From the sequence record HE978309: DNA of 64,000 bases, one strand, 5' to 3'. Source of the DNA: Enterobacteria phage GEC-3S. A program made the position numbers and the translations under genes. Every line of letters begins with the position of its first letter. Position 1 is the first letter of the stretch. This document shows, piece after piece, positions 16,525 through 38,235 of the stretch. The notes beneath the pieces are model-generated. The model had not been told where the DNA came from and did not search any database. It worked only from the letters and a program-made list of their open reading frames with translations.

Positions 16525-16566
16525 TGCATTATAGGGGATCACCGATCCCCTGTCAACAACTTTTTA
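16525..16566 (-). promoter_or_regulatory. early promoter cassette (PeSL-like)
   Basis: TTGACA, spacer GGGGATCGGTGATCCCC (17-nt palindrome), TATAAT. Confidence 0.6.
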
Positions 16567-18656: not shown

Positions 18657-18698
18657 TGTATTGTAGGGGAGTTATCCTCCCCTGTCAACACTTTTTAT
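18657..18698 (-). promoter_or_regulatory. early promoter cassette (PeSL-like)
   Basis: TTGACA, spacer GGGGAGGATAACTCCCC palindrome, TACAAT. Confidence 0.55.
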
Positions 18699-18902: not shown

Positions 18903-18944
18903 TGTATTATAGGGGATCTCCCGATCCCCGTCAACAACTTTTTT
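18903..18944 (-). promoter_or_regulatory. early promoter cassette (PeSL-like)
   Basis: TTGACG, spacer GGGATCGGGAGATCCCC, TATAAT, conserved leader. Confidence 0.6.
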
Positions 18945-22177: not shown

Positions 22178-22219
22178 TGTAGTATAGGGGATCGGTGATC
22201 CCCTGTCAACAACTTTTTT
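22178..22219 (-). promoter_or_regulatory. early promoter cassette (PeSL-like)
   Basis: TTGACA, spacer GGGGATCACCGATCCCC, TATACT. Confidence 0.55.
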
Positions 22220-32453: not shown

Positions 32454-32930
32454 TTAATCATGACCGTGATTTGCAATATCCGCTCGCGTCTTATCTTTGT
32501 GATTTCCTACGTCAAAAACACGATAACCATTTTCACGCAAAACTTTAATCACTTCTGGGTTATCCTCAAAGACTCCGACAACTTCATCTTTATCAAAGGA
32601 TTTAATTACCTCTAATTTGATGTGATAGTCTTTACGGGAGTCTGTGCGGCCTCTCATAAAGATTTTATCAAAACACACCCCGTTAGAAATTAACCAATCA
32701 ATTGTTTCCATGTAAGCATGTGAACTTCGTCCGGTGAGGATGTAAATCAAATGCCCGTTATCGGAAAGAGCATTAATAACACGAATTACATCGTAAATGG
32801 GGGAATCTCCCCCACATGCCTTGTTATATTCGATCCATGACTCAACTTTATCAAGATTTTCGGTTGGCATCTTTGTTAGTCGATGTGTTGGATCTGTGAT
32901 CGTAAAATCTAAATCGACAAAATATATCAT
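32454..32930 (-). CDS. HAD-superfamily phosphatase (possible deoxynucleotidase)
   Basis: 158 aa; motif I FVDLDFT, motif II ILTGR, acidic motif FEDNPE. Confidence 0.5.
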   Translation of the reverse strand: MIYFVDLDFTITDPTHRLTKMPTENLDKVESWIEYNKACGGDSPIYDVIRVINALSDNGHLIYILTGRSSHAYMETIDWLISNGVCFDKIFMRGRTDSRKDYHIKLEVIKSFDKDEVVGVFEDNPEVIKVLRENGYRVFDVGNHKDKTRADIANHGHD

Positions 32931-34087
32931 AGATATTTCCCGAATCGGTTGTAGTCATCGTCTGTTAAATCGGTATTAACCTGAGATACCAGATACATAA
33001 TCTCTACTTCCTGCGCTGCATTCTGTACTTCGTCAGAGTTCAACCATTTACGCATCCACGGTAACGGATGACGACGAACACTAAACGGGCTTTTCAGTCC
33101 GGCAGCACGCATACGGGAATCTGCCAGGTATTCTACATAGGTTTTCAGAATTTCCGGTGACAGGTTAGGAATTGCCCCCATTGCGAATAGGTGGTCTACC
33201 CATTCTTTTTCTTGCTCGACAACATCCAGAAAGATTTTCGTTGCTTCGCCTTCAAGTTCTTCCGCAATCTGTTTCCACTCATCACCATCAACCCCCGTTT
33301 GCCATTGACGAATAATGTATTGTGTGCCTTTTAAGTGAAGTTGTTCATCACGCGCAATAAATTTCATGATCTTCGCGTTACCTTCCAGTAAACCACGTTC
33401 GGCAAAGCTGAAAGTACATGCAAAGGACACATAAAAACGAATTGCTTCCAGTGCATTGACGCAGTGTGCACACAGATAAATCGAAGCCATCAGATCTCGT
33501 TTTGTATCTTCAAAAAATCTTCTTGCATCATCTAATGCTGTCTGGTCGTCTCGTTCTTCCCAATAGCGGAGATCTTCTTTTGCATTCTCATACTTACGAA
33601 TCCAATAAAGAACATCATCATAATATTTCCCGATAGATTCCGCTCGCTTCATGATAGCAGGGTTATCGATGATCTGGTCGAACTCACTAGCCGGATCAAT
33701 GAAACAGTTACGCATAATGTGTGTATAGCTTCGGCTATGAATCGTTTCGCTGAATGTCCATGTTTGCAACCATGTATCGAGAGTTGGATCAGATACAATT
33801 GGACCAAATGCTGCGGACGGTGCGCGTCCTTGAATAGAATCAAGTAATGTCTGATACTTCAAATTTTCGGTAAAGAAACGCTTTTCAACGTCACCCATAT
33901 TAAGATATTGAATGCGGTCGGTTGCAAGTGAAATTTCTTCGGGGCGCCAAAAAAATGACAATTGCTTTTCGATCAGTTCTTCAAATACTTGATGACGCTG
34001 AATATCATAGCGAGCGATACCCAACCCACTACCCAGAAACATTGGTTCGTTCATAATATCAACATGTTCGCGGTTAAATACGCTCAT
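32927..34087 (-). CDS. nrdB: ribonucleotide reductase small subunit
   Basis: 386 aa; ferritin-like di-iron motifs; uninterrupted ORF. Confidence 0.9.
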   Translation of the reverse strand: MSVFNREHVDIMNEPMFLGSGLGIARYDIQRHQVFEELIEKQLSFFWRPEEISLATDRIQYLNMGDVEKRFFTENLKYQTLLDSIQGRAPSAAFGPIVSDPTLDTWLQTWTFSETIHSRSYTHIMRNCFIDPASEFDQIIDNPAIMKRAESIGKYYDDVLYWIRKYENAKEDLRYWEERDDQTALDDARRFFEDTKRDLMASIYLCAHCVNALEAIRFYVSFACTFSFAERGLLEGNAKIMKFIARDEQLHLKGTQYIIRQWQTGVDGDEWKQIAEELEGEATKIFLDVVEQEKEWVDHLFAMGAIPNLSPEILKTYVEYLADSRMRAAGLKSPFSVRRHPLPWMRKWLNSDEVQNAAQEVEIMYLVSQVNTDLTDDDYNRFGKYL

Positions 34088-34102: not shown

Positions 34103-34270
34103 TCACTTTTTAACACAAAAGAACTTAGTATTTCTGTTAACTTCGCTATCCTGCTGCAATTCCTGCACAGCTTCAAAACAATTTTGATATGATGAAAACT
34201 CTACGCTGGTAACAGTTCCTTTATTATATACGCCTACGCTAACGGAAAGCAATAACCATAATGTAGCCAT
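34103..34270 (-). CDS. small hydrophobic N-terminus protein, tandem paralog 1 (55 aa)
   Basis: MATLWLLLSVSVGVYNKG...; AAGGTGA RBS; TAATG stop-start overlap with paralog 2. Confidence 0.4.
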   Translation of the reverse strand: MATLWLLLSVSVGVYNKGTVTSVEFSSYQNCFEAVQELQQDSEVNRNTKFFCVKK

Positions 34271-34443
34271 TAGTTCACCTTTTGTTTTTCAACGCAATAT
34301 AGATTCATAAAGCGTTTATTGTCTTCGCGGATAATCTCGCGAGCTTTAACGCAATCCTGCTTTGTTGCAAATTCAATGCTTGACATATTTCCGTAATTAT
34401 ACATTGAATTGCTGATTGCAATCAATAACCATACAGTAGCCAT
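34270..34443 (-). CDS. small hydrophobic N-terminus protein, tandem paralog 2 (57 aa)
   Basis: MATVWLLIAISNSMYNYG...; TAATG stop-start overlap with upstream ORF. Confidence 0.4.
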   Translation of the reverse strand: MATVWLLIAISNSMYNYGNMSSIEFATKQDCVKAREIIREDNKRFMNLYCVEKQKVN

Positions 34444-34631
34444 TATTCGACAACCTCAAAGCATTTATCATCAGGAAGAATAGCCCATTCTATGCCGTAT
34501 TCATCCTCAACGTAGTAGCAAGCCCCATCATGTCGAGCATCATATTCATCACGTCGAGCATCATATACATCACCGACAACAAAGCTATCAGCTAGCTCAA
34601 AATCTACAGCAACACATTTTAATTTGGTCAT
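34443..34631 (-). CDS. hypothetical acidic protein (62 aa)
   Basis: ORF track 34443..34694; start MTKLKCVAV with GTGAGGAT RBS. Confidence 0.45.
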   Translation of the reverse strand: MTKLKCVAVDFELADSFVVGDVYDARRDEYDARHDGACYYVEDEYGIEWAILPDDKCFEVVE

Positions 34632-34659
34632 AATAAAATCCTCACTTGTTTTTGATGGT

Positions 34660-34701
34660 TGAATTATAGCGGGGATTTCTCCCCGCGTCAACACTTATTT
34701 T
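34660..34701 (-). promoter_or_regulatory. promoter with palindromic spacer, just downstream of nrdA
   Basis: TTGACG, spacer CGGGGAGAAATCCCCGC, TATAAT. Confidence 0.5.
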
Positions 34702-36943
34702 ACAGCTTGCAAGATGAGCACTCGCTAGAGTCTTCCGTACCATCTGCACCGTCGCGAACGTTCGCATAATACAGGGTTTTCAGACCGTAATATTGAGCAA
34801 ACAACATATCATCTAAAACATCAGCAATATCGACTTTACCCGTCTTATAAGTGCTTGGGTCGTAGGATGTATTGGAACTAATCGCCTGGTCTACAAACTT
34901 CTGCATGATCGCTGCCAGTGTCAGATAAGGCTTGTTACCTTTCTTGATCAGTGTCCAAAGCAGGTCAATAACATCAGCATTATTCTCTACGTTCGGAATA
35001 ACCTGATTAAATTGCCCTTCTTTCGATCCTTTAACCGATACAATCCCGCGAGGCGGTTCAATACCGTTTGTGCTGTTAGACACCTGAGAAGACGACTCAC
35101 AAGGCATCAGCGCCGAAAGCGTACTGTTACGAATGCCATATTTTTTCAGGTCTTCGCGCAGTTCTTCCCAATCCATCTCATACACCGGATCAACCAGTTC
35201 ATCTACTGTCTTTTTGTACCAGTCGATAGGAAGTTCACCGCGACCATAGCGTGTTTCGTGCATCAGTTCGCAAGCACCCTTCTCTTTTGCTAGCTGCACA
35301 CTAGCTTTAATCAGAGCATATTGCAAGCGTTCAAACGTTTTATGCGTAAACTCGTTAGCGTCTTCATATGTGAAGAAATTATCTGCTAGATATGATGCAA
35401 AGTTAGTCACACCAACACCCAGAGAGCGACGTTTTTTGGCTGTCAGAGCTTGTTCTACAGGATAATCCTGGTAATCTAACAGGTTGTCAAGTGCACGCAC
35501 CATAACCATAGCAATGCGTTCTACTTCTTCCATATTTTCGATATCAAAGTTTCCTAAAACATATGCTGCCAAAGTGCATAGGCTGATCTCTGAATCATCA
35601 CGACCCATCGGTTTTGTAGGCAGAGCAATTTCACAACACAGGTTGGATTGTTTAATCGGTGCTACATTACGAATAAACGCCCCGTGATTGTTCATGTTGT
35701 CTGTGAACGTTGGGTAGATTCGACCAGTGTTAAAACGTTCAATTGCCACCGCTAAAAACAGGTCTTCGGCTTTAACACGAGTTTTACGAACACTCGGATC
35801 TTTTTCCAGTTTTTCGTAAAGCTGGCGGAAACCTTCCTCATCTCGGAAGTATAGATCCCACAACAAGCCACCTGCAACATCTGGACTAAACAGAGTAATG
35901 TAATCCCGTTTAAGGAATCGCTCTACCATCAGGTTATTAATCTGTACGCCGTAGTCAAGATGGCGAATGCGGTTATCTTCCACGCCCTTATTGTTCTTTA
36001 ACACAATCAGACTTTCAAACTCTAAATGCCACATTGGGTAATAGAGAGTCGCCGCCCCGCCACGAATACCGCCTTGTGAGCATGACTTAACGGCAGTCTG
36101 AAAATGTTTCCAGAATGGGATAACGCCAGTATGACGAACTTCACCATGCCCGATCTTAGATCCTTCCGCGCGAATCATGCCAGCGTTGATACCGATACCC
36201 GCACGCTTGCTAATATACTTGATGATTGCATTTGCTGTTTCGTTGATGCCCTGCAATGAGTCATCACTTTCAATCACCACACACGAACTAAATTGGCGTG
36301 TTGGGGTACGCACACCAGCCATAATCGGAGTAGGCAGAGAGATTTGCTTATTCGAAACAGCATTATAAAAATCAATCACATGTTCAAGTCGATTTTCTGT
36401 CTCTTCTTGATGCAAGCACATACCGATCAGCATATACGCAAATTGCGGTGTTTCGATGATTTTCTTAGTGCTGCGATCCTGAACAAGATATTTCTCTTTT
36501 AACTGCATCGCACCAGCATAGGTCATTTTAAAATCAAGTTTATGGTCGATGAATTTCTCCAGATATTCCACTTCTTCACGGGAATACTTTTGCAGAATTT
36601 CACGATCATATTTTCCGGTTGCAATATTACGCTCAATATGGCTGTAAAAATCAATCGGTTGGAATTGACCGTATACTGATTTGCGAAGCGCGAACATTGC
36701 AAGGTTACTTGCTACATATTGATAATCGGGTGTTTCTACAGTAATGTTATCTGCTGCGACCTTAATCAATACTTTCTGGATATCATTGGTAGACATACCT
36801 TCTGTCAGAAGTGGTTCAACCATATCAAACAATTCATATGGATCAACGTTATGACCTTCGGCTGCCGCTTCCAGAATTTTCATTACTTTTTCTTTTTCAA
36901 ACGGAACAGTCAGACCGGAAGACTTAACAACATTTTTAATCAT
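34700..36943 (-). CDS. nrdA: ribonucleotide reductase large subunit
   Basis: 747 aa; class Ia RNR alpha features, synteny with nrdB. Confidence 0.9.
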   Translation of the reverse strand: MIKNVVKSSGLTVPFEKEKVMKILEAAAEGHNVDPYELFDMVEPLLTEGMSTNDIQKVLIKVAADNITVETPDYQYVASNLAMFALRKSVYGQFQPIDFYSHIERNIATGKYDREILQKYSREEVEYLEKFIDHKLDFKMTYAGAMQLKEKYLVQDRSTKKIIETPQFAYMLIGMCLHQEETENRLEHVIDFYNAVSNKQISLPTPIMAGVRTPTRQFSSCVVIESDDSLQGINETANAIIKYISKRAGIGINAGMIRAEGSKIGHGEVRHTGVIPFWKHFQTAVKSCSQGGIRGGAATLYYPMWHLEFESLIVLKNNKGVEDNRIRHLDYGVQINNLMVERFLKRDYITLFSPDVAGGLLWDLYFRDEEGFRQLYEKLEKDPSVRKTRVKAEDLFLAVAIERFNTGRIYPTFTDNMNNHGAFIRNVAPIKQSNLCCEIALPTKPMGRDDSEISLCTLAAYVLGNFDIENMEEVERIAMVMVRALDNLLDYQDYPVEQALTAKKRRSLGVGVTNFASYLADNFFTYEDANEFTHKTFERLQYALIKASVQLAKEKGACELMHETRYGRGELPIDWYKKTVDELVDPVYEMDWEELREDLKKYGIRNSTLSALMPCESSSQVSNSTNGIEPPRGIVSVKGSKEGQFNQVIPNVENNADVIDLLWTLIKKGNKPYLTLAAIMQKFVDQAISSNTSYDPSTYKTGKVDIADVLDDMLFAQYYGLKTLYYANVRDGADGTEDSSECSSCKL

Positions 36944-37011
36944 ATTACCTCACTTCATATTTTAGCAGGAACAAGTTTATCCTCCATATTGGGGGCTTTC
37001 GCCCCCTTTGT

Positions 37012-38235
37012 TTATACTGCCATTTGAGCGGTGATCGCTGGATGGCTTTGATAGTTGTGAATTTTAAAATCTTTCGGAGTCTTTGTCAATACCTCATCTA
37101 AAGATTTAAATTCCGGCAACTCAATTGTTGGTTTATCAAACGGAACACGGCTTAACTGTTCCATAACTTGATCAAAATGGTTTTTGTAAATGTGGCAATC
37201 CCCACACTGATAAACCAGTTCGCCAACTTCTAACCCGCAAATCTTCGCGATGATATGCGTTAACAGTGCATAGCTCGCTACGTTGAACGGATTCCCTAAA
37301 AAGAGATCATTCGAACGCATGAAAAATAAACAACTCAATTTGTTGTCGTTGGAAACATAAAACTGTACCATCGGATGACATACACCTAACACAGCATTAT
37401 GCGTTTCCTGTACGTTCCATGAATCAATGATAATACGACGACTATACGGATCATTCTTGATCATGTCAATAACTTTTTGTAACTGGTCTTCCCAAATCTT
37501 CGGGCGATAGACATATTCTTCATCGTCTTTAGTGCTTGATGTGTCTACGTCCATACTAACAAACATCGTGGTATCCGGTGCTATAATATCCCCACCCAGA
37601 TAATCACTATCAAGCAGATAACCGAAATAACCATCATCTACCCATTCCTGGAATCCCCACAAGCAATATGCATCATTAACAAAATTAGATTGAGTCTTCC
37701 AGTGGTCTGCTACCAGAATATAATCAAACTCTTCATAACGCATACCACGCCAGATAGCACATAAACGGTCTTCTGTGTCATTGGTTGGCGTAAAGTCTTC
37801 TACCCACGGGTGCTTAAATGTATGTGTATATTTGCTCTTAACGCGCTTAATTTTGATTTCACCATGTGGATGAATCGGTTTGCGTCGCCACGCCATACCA
37901 TACATATTGCCGACATTATAACCATTGAATCGCAAGGGATTCTTTTCTTTCATATCAAGACAGTTGCCGCGCCAAATATCAAAGGCTTCCTCGTCAAACT
38001 TGCCGCGTGTAATTTCCTGTAAGCGACGGCGGTCAAGTGATCCCTCCATAAACCATAGCAATTCGCCAATCACAGAGGCTGTAGCCATCTTTTTAGTGGT
38101 CAGTAATGGGAAACCCTTGCTTAAATCAATTCGCATCTCTGCGCCGAATTTAGAGAGCGTACCTACCCCCGTGCGGTCTTCACGAGGACAGCCATTATCA
38201 AGAACATCACGCAACAGTTTCAAATATTCTTTCAT
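37012..38235 (-). CDS. td: thymidylate synthase with a large internal insertion
   Basis: 407 aa; conserved DRTGVGT, catalytic CHPMVQFYV, SNDLFLGNPFNVASYALL; roughly 120 extra residues between YGMAWRR and DPYSRRII; no intron. Confidence 0.85.
   Translation of the reverse strand: MKEYLKLLRDVLDNGCPREDRTGVGTLSKFGAEMRIDLSKGFPLLTTKKMATASVIGELLWFMEGSLDRRRLQEITRGKFDEEAFDIWRGNCLDMKEKNPLRFNGYNVGNMYGMAWRRKPIHPHGEIKIKRVKSKYTHTFKHPWVEDFTPTNDTEDRLCAIWRGMRYEEFDYILVADHWKTQSNFVNDAYCLWGFQEWVDDGYFGYLLDSDYLGGDIIAPDTTMFVSMDVDTSSTKDDEEYVYRPKIWEDQLQKVIDMIKNDPYSRRIIIDSWNVQETHNAVLGVCHPMVQFYVSNDNKLSCLFFMRSNDLFLGNPFNVASYALLTHIIAKICGLEVGELVYQCGDCHIYKNHFDQVMEQLSRVPFDKPTIELPEFKSLDEVLTKTPKDFKIHNYQSHPAITAQMAV

What the first reader, a model, noticed from the sequence alone, without database searches (positions are those of the whole stretch)
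34103..34694. Chain of three translationally coupled small ORFs between nrdA and nrdB, including a tandem paralog pair
Downstream of nrdA there is a promoter with palindromic spacer, then a 62-aa acidic ORF, then two paralogous 55-57-aa ORFs (MATVWLLIAISNSMYNYG... and MATLWLLLSVSVGVYNKG...) with hydrophobic N-termini. Each is joined to the next by a TAATG stop-start overlap. The paralogs fall below the 60-aa ORF cutoff.
Basis: seen in the sequence. Interest (0 to 1): 0.35.

Follow-up and report, generated by a model that had tools for sequence, protein, structure and literature searches.

The report
Three small genes between phage nrdA/nrdB
Three real but tiny protein genes sit between the two ribonucleotide-reductase genes of an RB49-type coliphage. 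They are driven by a known promoter/hairpin cassette, are already annotated as hypothetical proteins in over 50 related phages, and have no known function.

Summary
The window is an RB49-like coliphage (Krischvirus). On the minus strand, nrdA is followed by a TTGACG-N17-TATAAT promoter whose spacer is a 7-bp GC hairpin. Then come ORF-A (62 aa, pI 4.1), ORF-B (57 aa) and ORF-C (55 aa), joined by TAATG overlaps, and nrdB starts 15 nt later.

All three frames are under purifying selection (pN/pS 0.24, 0.05, 0.18). They are annotated as RB49p233-231.

The promoter is a PeSL, a promoter-early stem-loop cassette described in 2010.

B and C are true paralogs (38% identity, both phrog_5579). Their family has about 50 clusters of 50-70 aa phage proteins with two invariant cysteines. 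Its hydrophobic N-terminus is predicted to be a core beta-strand of a soluble beta-beta-alpha-beta fold, not a membrane or signal segment.

ORF-A is confined to the genus.

Natural relatives carry 0, 1 or 2 B/C copies, with homing endonucleases or a methyltransferase inserted nearby, so these are dispensable accessory genes in an insertion hotspot.

One lead stands out: B/C-family members lie next to RNR or thymidylate-synthase genes in 5 of about 16 unrelated phage lineages. Function remains unknown. This is an ordinary, already annotated feature.

The parts
34700..36943 (-). nrdA (RNR large subunit, 747 aa). Its stop codon lies 8 nt upstream of the -35 hexamer.
   Evidence: annotated as nrdA in RB49 and relatives
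34663..34691 (-). PeSL cassette: sigma-70-type early promoter TTGACG-N17-TATAAT with the stem-loop inside the spacer.
   Evidence: The sequence is invariant in window, FL04, AV108 and Phi1. The PeSL class is described in PMC2839356.
34669..34686 (-). Hairpin GCGGGGA-GAAA-TCCCCGC (7 bp, GAAA loop). It is present only on read-through transcripts from nrdA and is the presumed attenuator/terminator.
   Evidence: The homologous site is annotated 'terminator' in Ec_Makalu_003.
34443..34631 (-). ORF-A: 62 aa, acidic, 3 Cys, homolog of RB49p233 (phrog_16302), with SD GAGGA at 34643-34639. It is a genus-restricted ORFan with a predicted small all-beta (SH3-like) fold.
34526..34567 (-). 21-nt in-frame tandem duplication inside ORF-A (YDARRDE / YDARHDG). 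It lengthens the usual 55-aa protein to 62 aa.
   Evidence: The identical 62-aa protein occurs in phage GEC-3S (P0065).
34270..34443 (-). ORF-B: 57 aa, homolog of RB49p232, phrog_5579, with the start overlapping the ORF-A stop (TAATG).
34103..34270 (-). ORF-C: 55 aa, homolog of RB49p231, phrog_5579, tandem paralog of ORF-B, with the start overlapping the ORF-B stop (TAATG).
   Evidence: A 35-nt direct repeat (80% identical) lies at the 5' ends of B and C.
32927..34087 (-). nrdB (RNR small subunit, 386 aa). It starts 15 nt after the ORF-C stop and has SD GAGGTG. No promoter consensus lies between ORF-C and nrdB.

Best explanation
This is a PeSL-headed early gene cassette in the nrdA-nrdB spacer of an RB49-type (Krischvirus) phage.

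Shown:
- Three small reading frames are genuine protein-coding genes under purifying selection.
- B and C are tandem paralogs of a widespread small phage protein family, phrog_5579. Members are 50-70 aa, with two invariant Cys and W5/L7/F25 nearly invariant.
- The family is predicted to be a soluble beta-beta-alpha-beta domain, not a membrane protein.
- ORF-A is a Krischvirus-only acidic beta-rich ORFan.
- The cassette is dispensable and plastic. Relatives have 0, 1 or 2 B/C copies, with a methyltransferase or homing endonucleases inserted beside them.

Inferred:
- Transcripts reading out of nrdA meet the GC hairpin and are partly terminated.
- Host sigma-70 RNA polymerase re-initiates at the overlapping near-consensus promoter, at roughly position 34656, early in infection. 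This makes one mRNA carrying A, B, C and nrdB.
- The TAATG junctions, with Shine-Dalgarno sequences embedded in the preceding ORF, keep ribosomes flowing from A to B to C. The three proteins are therefore made in a fixed ratio.
- The proteins are small cytoplasmic binding modules, with B and C possibly forming a heterodimer through their exposed sheet. They act as non-essential accessory factors of the early/DNA-metabolism programme.

The biochemical target is unknown.
For: Identity of the region:
- 94-97% DNA identity to 57 Krischvirus records, where the ORFs are annotated as hypothetical proteins.

Coding status:
- pN/pS is 0.235, 0.050 and 0.177 for A, B and C, against 0.010 and 0.057 for the nrdA and nrdB flanks, with third-position bias.

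Family:
- phrog_5579 and phrog_16302 hits.
- 52 cluster representatives at E<=1e-3 among 1.8 billion proteins; all but four are 44-76 aa (three long repeat-containing proteins, two of them inspected and judged spurious, and one 113-aa protein), and the 45 aligned share C31 and C50.
- 39 of 45 hit phrog_5579 and none hits Pfam.

Fold:
- AF2 gives pLDDT 88.4, pTM 0.70, with strands 5-11, 20-25 and 46-52 and helix 28-41.
- There are no TM or signal features.

Promoter/hairpin:
-.
- PeSLs with the stem-loop between -35 and -10 are the commonest class in phi1/RB49. Tested examples were shown experimentally to act as a strong promoter and an effective terminator (PMC2839356).
- No promoter consensus or gap lies before nrdB.

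Plasticity:
- A methyltransferase is inserted upstream in Delraymugoa.
- A HEG follows ORF-C in phiS.
- G37-3 has a single B/C hybrid gene plus an HNH-AP2 HEG.
- AV108 has a frameshifted ORF-A and no B or C, replaced by a HEG.
Against: - No expression data were examined. Promoter activity, termination at this particular hairpin, and coupling are all inferred.
- The hairpin is followed by UAUAAUUC, not a classical U-tract, and the consensus terminator scan did not call it.
- 'Binding module' is a default reading of small phage early proteins, not a tested function.
- The recurrent position next to RNR genes (see the rival explanations) hints at a more specific role.
- The ORF-A model is only moderate (pLDDT 70, from 6 near-identical sequences).
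Confidence: 0.75

Rival explanations
1. B and C (phrog_5579) are dedicated accessory factors of phage deoxynucleotide synthesis. They could be a small dithiol or metal-binding partner of ribonucleotide reductase or the dNTP-synthetase complex, acting as a B/C heterodimer that contributes 2+2 cysteines.
For: Family members lie within a few genes of RNR, thymidylate synthase or DHFR in 5 of about 16 distinct lineages:
- Krischvirus.
- A second T4-like lineage, with a single member exactly between a HEG-split nrdA and nrdB (L029/L030).
- ThyX...member-131aa-RNR (L010/L011).
- ThyA-member-DHFR...glutaredoxin (L012).
- RNRlarge-HNH-RNRsmall-83-241-member (L031). These were tabulated.

Other support:
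- With a generous 10% background, 5 or more of 16 has a binomial p of about 0.02 (my calculation).
- Two Cys are invariant in all 45 aligned members.
- In the model one Cys sits in the first turn of the helix and the other in the parallel strand that follows.
- Tandem, overlapping paralogs suit a heterodimer.
Against: - Most lineages place the gene elsewhere: lambdoid replication/nin-type regions, a T7-like early region, and beside lysis genes.
- AV108 lacks both genes and G37-3 has one, yet both were isolated as phages on E. coli.
- There is no CxxC motif, no Pfam or PDB sequence hit, and no significant fold match to redoxins or ferredoxins.
- RNR neighbourhoods are known hotspots for homing endonucleases and mobile DNA (PMC2988022). 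HEGs are present in four of the five RNR-adjacent contexts, so adjacency may reflect insertion opportunity.
- The lineage count is small and not an unbiased sample.
Confidence: 0.12
2. B and C are small membrane-anchored or exported proteins, for example superinfection-exclusion or lysis-timing proteins. The hydrophobic N-terminus would act as a signal or anchor and the two Cys would form a periplasmic disulfide.
For: - The N-terminus MATVWLLIAIS is hydrophobic.
- Two invariant cysteines would suit an oxidising compartment.
- Many small T4-type early proteins are membrane proteins (general knowledge).
Against: - The apolar run has a median of 7 and a maximum of 9 residues.
- No member reaches the Kyte-Doolittle TM threshold.
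- 40 of 45 members lack any K/R n-region.
- W5 and L7 are among the best conserved positions of the family, unlike signal peptides.
- AF2 confidently builds residues 5-11 as a strand in the three-stranded sheet.
Confidence: 0.06
3. The ORFs are non-functional filler or decaying remnants. Only the PeSL and the spacing between nrdA and nrdB matter.
For: - ORF-A is frameshifted in AV108 and possibly in FL04.
- B/C are lost or fused in two phages.
- No function is known.
Against: - Purifying selection acts on all three frames, with B as constrained as nrdB.
- 55 of 57 Krischvirus records keep C.
- The B/C family is conserved across unrelated phage groups.
Confidence: 0.03

Closest known systems
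PeSL (promoter-early stem-loop) cassettes of RB49/phi1 (Arbiol et al. 2010, PMC2839356; Comeau et al. 2014, PMC4122927)
   Same: It has a near-consensus TTGACN-N17-TATAAT promoter, a G-run/C-run stem-loop between -35 and -10, and an A/T-rich stretch with the upstream stop codon just before -35. An SD and start codon of small ORFan genes follow just after. It lies in the same phage genus, and the neighbouring gene content varies between relatives.
   Different: It lies inside the conserved nucleotide-metabolism block rather than in a large hyperplastic region. This particular PeSL (nrdA/233) is not mentioned in the main text of either paper, and its activity is untested.
T4 nrdA-mobE-nrdB arrangement (Edgell et al. 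2010, PMC2988022)
   Same: The intergenic slot is the same. An inserted gene is joined by a UAAUG-type stop/start overlap, a terminator limits read-through from nrdA, and a separate promoter ahead of nrdB is proposed to balance NrdA and NrdB.
   Different: In T4 the insert is one HNH homing endonuclease and the nrdB promoter is a MotA-type middle promoter. Here the inserts are three small non-nuclease ORFs and the promoter is an early sigma-70 type placed before them. tblastn of A and C found no T4 sequence at E<=1.
PHROG families phrog_5579 (B, C) and phrog_16302 (A)
   Same: Strong full-length HMM matches: E about 7e-24 for B and C, and 5e-40 for A.
   Different: Both PHROGs are 'unknown function', so membership names the family but gives no mechanism.
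Small beta/alpha phage inhibitor proteins such as T4 Dmd antitoxin and phi29-type p56
   Same: Similar size (50-60 aa) and a sheet-plus-helix architecture. Both appear among weak Foldseek hits (TM about 0.5-0.56).
   Different: The E-values are 3.7-4.1, so they are not significant. There is no sequence similarity. This is a resemblance of size and class only.

Membership tests
PeSL (promoter-early stem-loop) | Near-consensus sigma-70 -35 and -10 hexamers with a 17-nt spacer | tested here: met
   TTGACG-N17-TATAAT matches 11 of 12 consensus positions.
PeSL (promoter-early stem-loop) | Stable stem-loop, typically G-run...C-run, within or next to the promoter | tested here: met
   GCGGGGA-GAAA-TCCCCGC lies in the spacer. 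The fold is -17.6 kcal/mol, z -2.9.
PeSL (promoter-early stem-loop) | Intergenic: upstream stop codon in an A/T-rich stretch, then SD and start of a small ORF(an) downstream | tested here: met
   The nrdA TAA sits within TGTAAAATAAGTG just before -35. GAGGA and the ATG of ORF-A lie 20-32 nt after -10.
PeSL (promoter-early stem-loop) | Promoter and terminator activity in vivo | not testable with these tools
   Activity was shown only for other PeSLs: 206/205 (promoter activity measured) and 211/210 (stem-loop as terminator); most clones of 193/192 and 206/205 carried -35/-10 point mutations (PMC2839356).
phrog_5579 small phage protein family (ORF-B, ORF-C) | Full-length match to the family HMM | tested here: met
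   E 6.8e-24 and 6.7e-24, covering profile positions 1-52 of 52.
phrog_16302 (ORF-A) | Full-length match to the family HMM | tested here: met
   E 5.1e-40. The match is split into two stretches by the 7-aa duplication.
Sec signal peptide / single-pass membrane anchor | Positively charged n-region plus an h-region of about 10-15 residues (signal), or an apolar helix of about 18 or more residues (anchor) | tested here: not met
   The apolar run is at most 9 residues, the highest KD-19 mean is 1.52 (below 1.6) in 45 of 45 members, and 40 of 45 have no K/R in residues 1-6. AF2 models this segment as a strand.
Translationally coupled operon | Stop codon of the upstream ORF overlapping or abutting the start codon of the downstream ORF | tested here: met
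   TAATG at both junctions.
Translationally coupled operon | Downstream translation depends on upstream translation | not testable with these tools
   This needs nonsense or fusion experiments. Each ORF also has its own SD.
Thioredoxin/glutaredoxin/NrdH-type RNR reductants | CxxC active site and the thioredoxin fold or family HMM | tested here: not met
   The cysteines are 19-21 residues apart. No Pfam hit appears in 45 members, and there is no significant PDB fold or sequence match.
T4 nrdA-nrdB spacer genes (mobE, and nrdA.1/nrdA.2 recalled from memory) | Detectable sequence homology | tested here: not met
   tblastn of A and C against 50,697 phage records at E<=1 returned no Tequatrovirus hit.

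The most novel reading that the evidence does not exclude
The phrog_5579 family (ORF-B/ORF-C) is a previously unrecognised mini-protein partner of phage ribonucleotide reductase or dNTP synthesis. It would use its two invariant cysteines for thiol exchange or for a shared metal or Fe-S site, as a homo- or heterodimer. This would explain why it recurs beside RNR, ThyA, ThyX and DHFR genes in unrelated phages.
Probability: 0.12. Interest if true: 0.6.

Novelty: already known. Interest (0 to 1): 0.25.

Why it matters
As it stands, the region confirms how RB49-type phages are already known to organise accessory genes. A published promoter/terminator cassette (PeSL) heads a string of compact, overlapping ORFan genes in a slot that also attracts homing endonucleases.

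Three points go modestly beyond the annotation:
- The two 'hydrophobic' paralogs are probably soluble beta-beta-alpha-beta mini-proteins, not membrane proteins.
- Their family extends well beyond T4-like phages and keeps two invariant cysteines.
- It repeatedly neighbours nucleotide-metabolism genes.

If that association reflects function, it would add a new small component to phage dNTP synthesis. If it reflects insertion opportunity, it illustrates how RNR loci act as landing pads for mobile DNA.

Tried and rejected
- **Word-indexed protein search with ORF-B alone:** it found only 4 near-identical proteins and not even ORF-C. The exhaustive profile search was needed.
- **The search for related loci with family alignments A2 and A3:** I replaced it with a degenerate DNA pattern for W-x-L-...-S-x-G-x-Y-N-x-G.
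  - It gave 15 viral loci, 65 metagenome loci and 68 genome loci.
  - After HMM filtering, 20 family ORFs in 18 of the 65 metagenome loci and 1 genome locus (an Enterobacter cloacae prophage) were real members.
  - I did not examine the Xanthomonas/Dyella matches individually; none contained an ORF that passed the family HMM.
- **tblastn of a consensus-like member (P0017) against cultured phages:** it added no lineage beyond Krischvirus and one Enterobacter phage.
- **Foldseek of the B model:** no significant PDB hit (best E 1.2). In BFVD it found only uncharacterised small phage proteins.
- **Foldseek of the ORF-A model:** weak SH3-like hits only, E >= 0.5.
- **PDB sequence profile search:** nothing.
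- **Pfam:** nothing for A, B, C or any of 45 family members.
- **Rfam on the region:** nothing meaningful.
- **Consensus terminator scan:** it did not call the PeSL hairpin.
- **Rejected readings:** the membrane/signal-peptide reading and the non-coding reading.
Full report
**What is there**

The genes of this part of the window lie on the minus strand. The order is as follows:
- td (38235..37012).
- nrdA (36943..34700).
- A 69-nt spacer.
- ORF-A (ATG 34631, stop 34445-34443, 62 aa).
- ORF-B (34443..34270, 57 aa).
- ORF-C (34270..34103, 55 aa).
- 15 nt later, nrdB (34087..32927).

The A/B and B/C junctions are both TAATG, so the last A of the stop codon is the first base of the ATG. Each small ORF also has its own Shine-Dalgarno sequence:
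- GAGGA, 7 nt before the ORF-A start.
- GAGG, 10 nt before the ORF-B start.
- AGGTG, 5 nt before the ORF-C start.

The last two are embedded in the preceding ORF. ORF-A is acidic, with pI 4.14 and 17 D+E against 6 K+R. The ORF listing entry of 83 aa from GTG 34694 would start inside the promoter, and relatives annotate the ATG form.

**Where the window comes from**

The 1-kb stretch around the finding is 94-97% identical to 57 phage records. All are RB49-like coliphages of the genus Krischvirus in Straboviridae: RB49, Phi1, JSE, GEC-3S types and others. In RB49 the three ORFs are RB49p233, p232 and p231. In Phi1 they are ORF233, ORF232 and ORF231. All are 'hypothetical protein'. They are short but not unannotated.

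**Are they genes?**

I compared the window with seven relatives: RB49, Delraymugoa, E26, Makalu_003, JK32, Phi1 and phiS.
- All three frames are intact.
- Nei-Gojobori pN/pS summed over pairs is 0.235 (A), 0.050 (B) and 0.177 (C). The adjacent nrdA and nrdB segments give 0.010 and 0.057.
- Variable columns fall mostly at third codon positions: 4/4/11, 3/0/9 and 9/5/19.
- No alternative ORF of 30 aa or more lies on the plus strand of 34103-34640, and Rfam finds nothing.

The three are therefore real protein-coding genes.

**The promoter**

TTGACG (34691-34686), a 17-nt spacer, and TATAAT (34668-34663) match 11 of 12 consensus positions. The spacer, together with the last G of the -35 hexamer, forms GCGGGGA-GAAA-TCCCCGC. 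The region folds at -17.6 kcal/mol with z -2.9.

The window contains other promoters of the same build:
- TTGACAGGGGATCGGTGATCCCCTATAAT at 16528-16556.
- Similar ones at 18660, 18906 and 22181.

This is the PeSL, or promoter-early stem-loop, described for phi1 and RB49 by Arbiol et al. 2010. That paper reports the following (PMC2839356):
- A near-perfect sigma-70 promoter and an A/T-rich upstream stretch holding the previous gene's stop codon.
- A G-run/C-run stem-loop, most commonly between -35 and -10.
- An SD and start codon of an ORFan downstream.
- One PeSL stem-loop terminated as well as rrnB T1, and PeSL promoters were very strong.
- PeSLs were proposed as recombination sites for shuffling ORFans.

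The nrdA/233 PeSL is not mentioned in the main text of either PeSL paper. The sequence is invariant in the window, FL04, AV108 and Phi1. The annotators of Ec_Makalu_003 labelled the site a terminator.

Because the hairpin lies upstream of the transcription start, only transcripts coming from nrdA contain it. There is no promoter consensus and almost no room between ORF-C and nrdB. I therefore infer two things:
- The hairpin attenuates nrdA read-through.
- The promoter launches an early A-B-C-nrdB message.

T4 uses the same logic at the same slot. There mobE overlaps the nrdA stop as UAAUGA, a terminator lies inside mobE, and a middle promoter precedes nrdB. This was proposed to balance NrdA and NrdB (PMC2988022). 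Stop/start overlaps are frequent on the coding strand of this window: 7 one-nt and 11 four-nt by a crude count. The TAATG junctions are therefore normal phage gene packing, and actual coupling is untested.

**ORF-B and ORF-C**

They are 38% identical (E 6e-16) and both match phrog_5579 end to end (E about 7e-24). A 35-nt direct repeat, 80% identical, marks their 5' ends.

An exhaustive profile search of 1.8 billion cluster representatives found 52 hits at E<=1e-3. All but four are 44-76 aa: three are long repeat-containing proteins, two of which I inspected and judged spurious, and one is a 113-aa protein. An alignment of 45 members shows these conserved features:
- C31 and C50 invariant.
- M1, W5, L7 and F25 at least 90% conserved.
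- The motif W-L-L-I-x-x-S-x-G-x-Y-N-x-G.

No member hits Pfam, and 39 of 45 hit phrog_5579. No source gives a name.

AlphaFold2 with this alignment gives a confident model, with pLDDT 88.4 and pTM 0.70:
- Strand 5-11.
- Strand 20-25.
- Helix 28-41.
- Strand 46-52.

In this model the hydrophobic N-terminus is a strand of the three-stranded sheet. Consistent with that:
- The apolar run has a median of 7 and a maximum of 9 residues.
- No member reaches a Kyte-Doolittle 19-residue mean of 1.6.
- 40 of 45 members have no K/R in the first six residues.

The most conserved residues of the family also lie in this segment, which is unlike a signal peptide. I therefore reject the membrane/export reading.

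Foldseek finds no significant PDB match (best E 1.2). In BFVD it finds only other uncharacterised small phage proteins. A PDB sequence profile search is empty.

**ORF-A**

It matches phrog_16302 (E 5e-40). Homologs occur only in Krischvirus, in 57 phage records plus a few metagenomic near-identical sequences.

The usual length is 55 aa. The window has a 21-nt in-frame tandem duplication at 34526-34567, GATGTATATGATGCTCGACGT | GATGAATATGATGCTCGACAT. This gives 62 aa, identical to the GEC-3S protein BN201_0235. The two repeat units differ at the V/E site, which is also polymorphic among relatives.

The AF2 model is moderate: pLDDT 70, five short strands, with the segment just before and into the first repeat unit at low confidence. 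Its Foldseek hits are weak SH3-like domains with E >= 0.5.

**Plasticity of the slot**

Relatives show five states:
1. A-B-C, in most.
2. A DNA methyltransferase gene inserted between nrdA and A, in Delraymugoa; Aragogtheria and KMB43 show the same ~0.9-kb insertion with a methyltransferase annotation in the search hits.
3. A homing endonuclease between C and nrdB, in phiS.
4. A single gene whose first residues are B-like and the rest C-like, followed by an HNH-AP2 endonuclease, in G37-3. This suggests recombination between the paralogs' similar 5' ends.
5. ORF-A frameshifted and B and C absent, replaced by a 224-aa endonuclease abutting nrdB, in AV108.

FL04 has an extra T in a T-run of ORF-A, which is either a frameshift or a sequencing error.

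By record counts, 57 Krischvirus records have A and about 55 have C. The genes are therefore usually kept, but they are not essential for plaque-forming phages.

**Context of the B/C family elsewhere**

I looked at every lineage for which I could get flanking DNA.

Five lineages place a member next to nucleotide-metabolism genes:
- Krischvirus.
- A second T4-like lineage: DHFR, a 412-aa thymidylate synthase, DUF4326, nrdA split by an I-HmuI-like endonuclease, the member, then nrdB (L029/L030).
- ThyX ... member, a 131-aa ORF, then RNR (L010/L011).
- ThyA, member, DHFR ... glutaredoxin, with a second divergent member 4 kb away (L012).
- RNR large, HNH, RNR small, two ORFs, then the member (L031).

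Eleven lineages show no RNR, thymidylate-synthase or DHFR gene in the flanking DNA held:
- An Autographiviridae early region (L002).
- A Drexlerviridae early region, three genes upstream of a dNMP kinase (L003).
- After a Lar-domain protein near lysis genes (L013).
- Lambdoid replication/nin-type regions with Ead/Ea22, ParB-HTH, DnaB, a DnaC-like ATPase or NinB (L021, L025, L027, L034/35).
- A 176-kb phage with two members about 260 nt apart (L026).
- Others: L024, L033, L066, L073.

One member is in an Enterobacter cloacae prophage.

Five of about 16 is more than a 10% background would give. The binomial p is about 0.02 by my own calculation. However, the sample is small and not independent. 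Four of the five RNR-adjacent contexts also carry homing endonucleases, and RNR loci are classical targets of mobile DNA (PMC2988022 and PMC3653736). The association is a lead, not a result.

**How it most likely works**

Shown:
- The genes are real.
- B and C are true paralogs.
- The B/C family is widespread.
- The predicted fold is soluble.
- The genes are dispensable.
- The promoter/hairpin has PeSL anatomy.

Inferred:
- Early sigma-70 transcription from the PeSL.
- Attenuation of nrdA read-through at the hairpin.
- Co-transcription with nrdB.
- Ribosome hand-over at the TAATG junctions.
- Small cytoplasmic binding proteins, with B and C perhaps pairing through their open sheet.

I put about 0.75 on this overall picture. 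Within it, the specific idea that B/C serve RNR or dNTP synthesis gets about 0.12, the membrane reading about 0.06, and the 'not functional' reading about 0.03.

**Novelty and verdict**

The ORFs are annotated in more than 50 GenBank records, both families are in PHROGs, and the promoter type was published in 2010.

What is new here is small:
- The soluble-fold reassignment of the hydrophobic N-terminus.
- The invariant Cys pair.
- The breadth of the family.
- The natural 0/1/2-copy variants.
- The recurrent RNR adjacency.

Interest is 0.25.

Noticed in passing
window 34526-34567 (-): A 21-nt in-frame tandem duplication in ORF-A gives 62 aa instead of 55 aa. It is shared with the GEC-3S protein BN201_0235 and absent from every relative I aligned or compared. 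The two units differ at the V/E codon, which is also polymorphic among relatives, so unequal recombination between alleles is possible.
   Followed up: partly
L103 (phage AV108, OR352938.1 47300-50300) and L104 (phage G37-3, MK327941.1 135300-137800): These are natural variants of the spacer. AV108 has a frameshifted ORF-A and no ORF-B or ORF-C, replaced by a 224-aa homing endonuclease abutting nrdB. G37-3 has one B/C hybrid gene followed by a 179-aa HNH-AP2 endonuclease.
   Followed up: yes
L004 (phage Delraymugoa 557-1396); also Aragogtheria and KMB43: An 840-nt DNA methyltransferase gene is inserted between nrdA and ORF-A in some Krischvirus phages, next to the PeSL. This fits PeSL-mediated cassette insertion.
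   Followed up: partly
window 37012-38235 (-): The thymidylate synthase here is 407 aa, about 120 aa longer than T4 Td (286 aa, from memory). It has an acidic, aromatic-rich insertion in the middle. A 412-aa thymidylate synthase also occurs in the unrelated T4-like metagenomic locus L029.
   Followed up: no
window 36991-37089 (-): There is a second PeSL-like element between td and nrdA. Its promoter, TTGACA-N17-TAAAAT, lies at 37089..37061, and the palindrome GGGGGCGAAAGCCCCC lies at 37006..36991, just upstream of the nrdA start.
   Followed up: no
window 16528-16556, 18660-18688, 18906-18934, 22181-22209 (-): A cluster of PeSLs has GGGG...CCCC hairpins in the promoter spacer. It presumably marks a hyperplastic region of small early ORFs.
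   Followed up: no
L012 6182-6358 and L026 9423-9605: Two unrelated phage contigs each carry a second, much more divergent member of the B/C family near the first (E 1e-5 and 3e-4). Duplication of this family is therefore not unique to Krischvirus.
   Followed up: partly
L029/L030 (ENA ERZ27235521 / ERZ27235406): A metagenomic T4-like phage has nrdA split into two genes by an I-HmuI-like endonuclease gene, as described for phage Aeh1. A single B/C-family gene lies between nrdA-b and nrdB.
   Followed up: partly
window 32927-32930 (-): The nrdB stop overlaps the start of the next gene (ATGA). That gene is a 158-aa protein annotated as polynucleotide kinase in RB49 and as 3'-phosphatase in AV108. 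The A-B-C-nrdB message therefore probably extends further.
   Followed up: no
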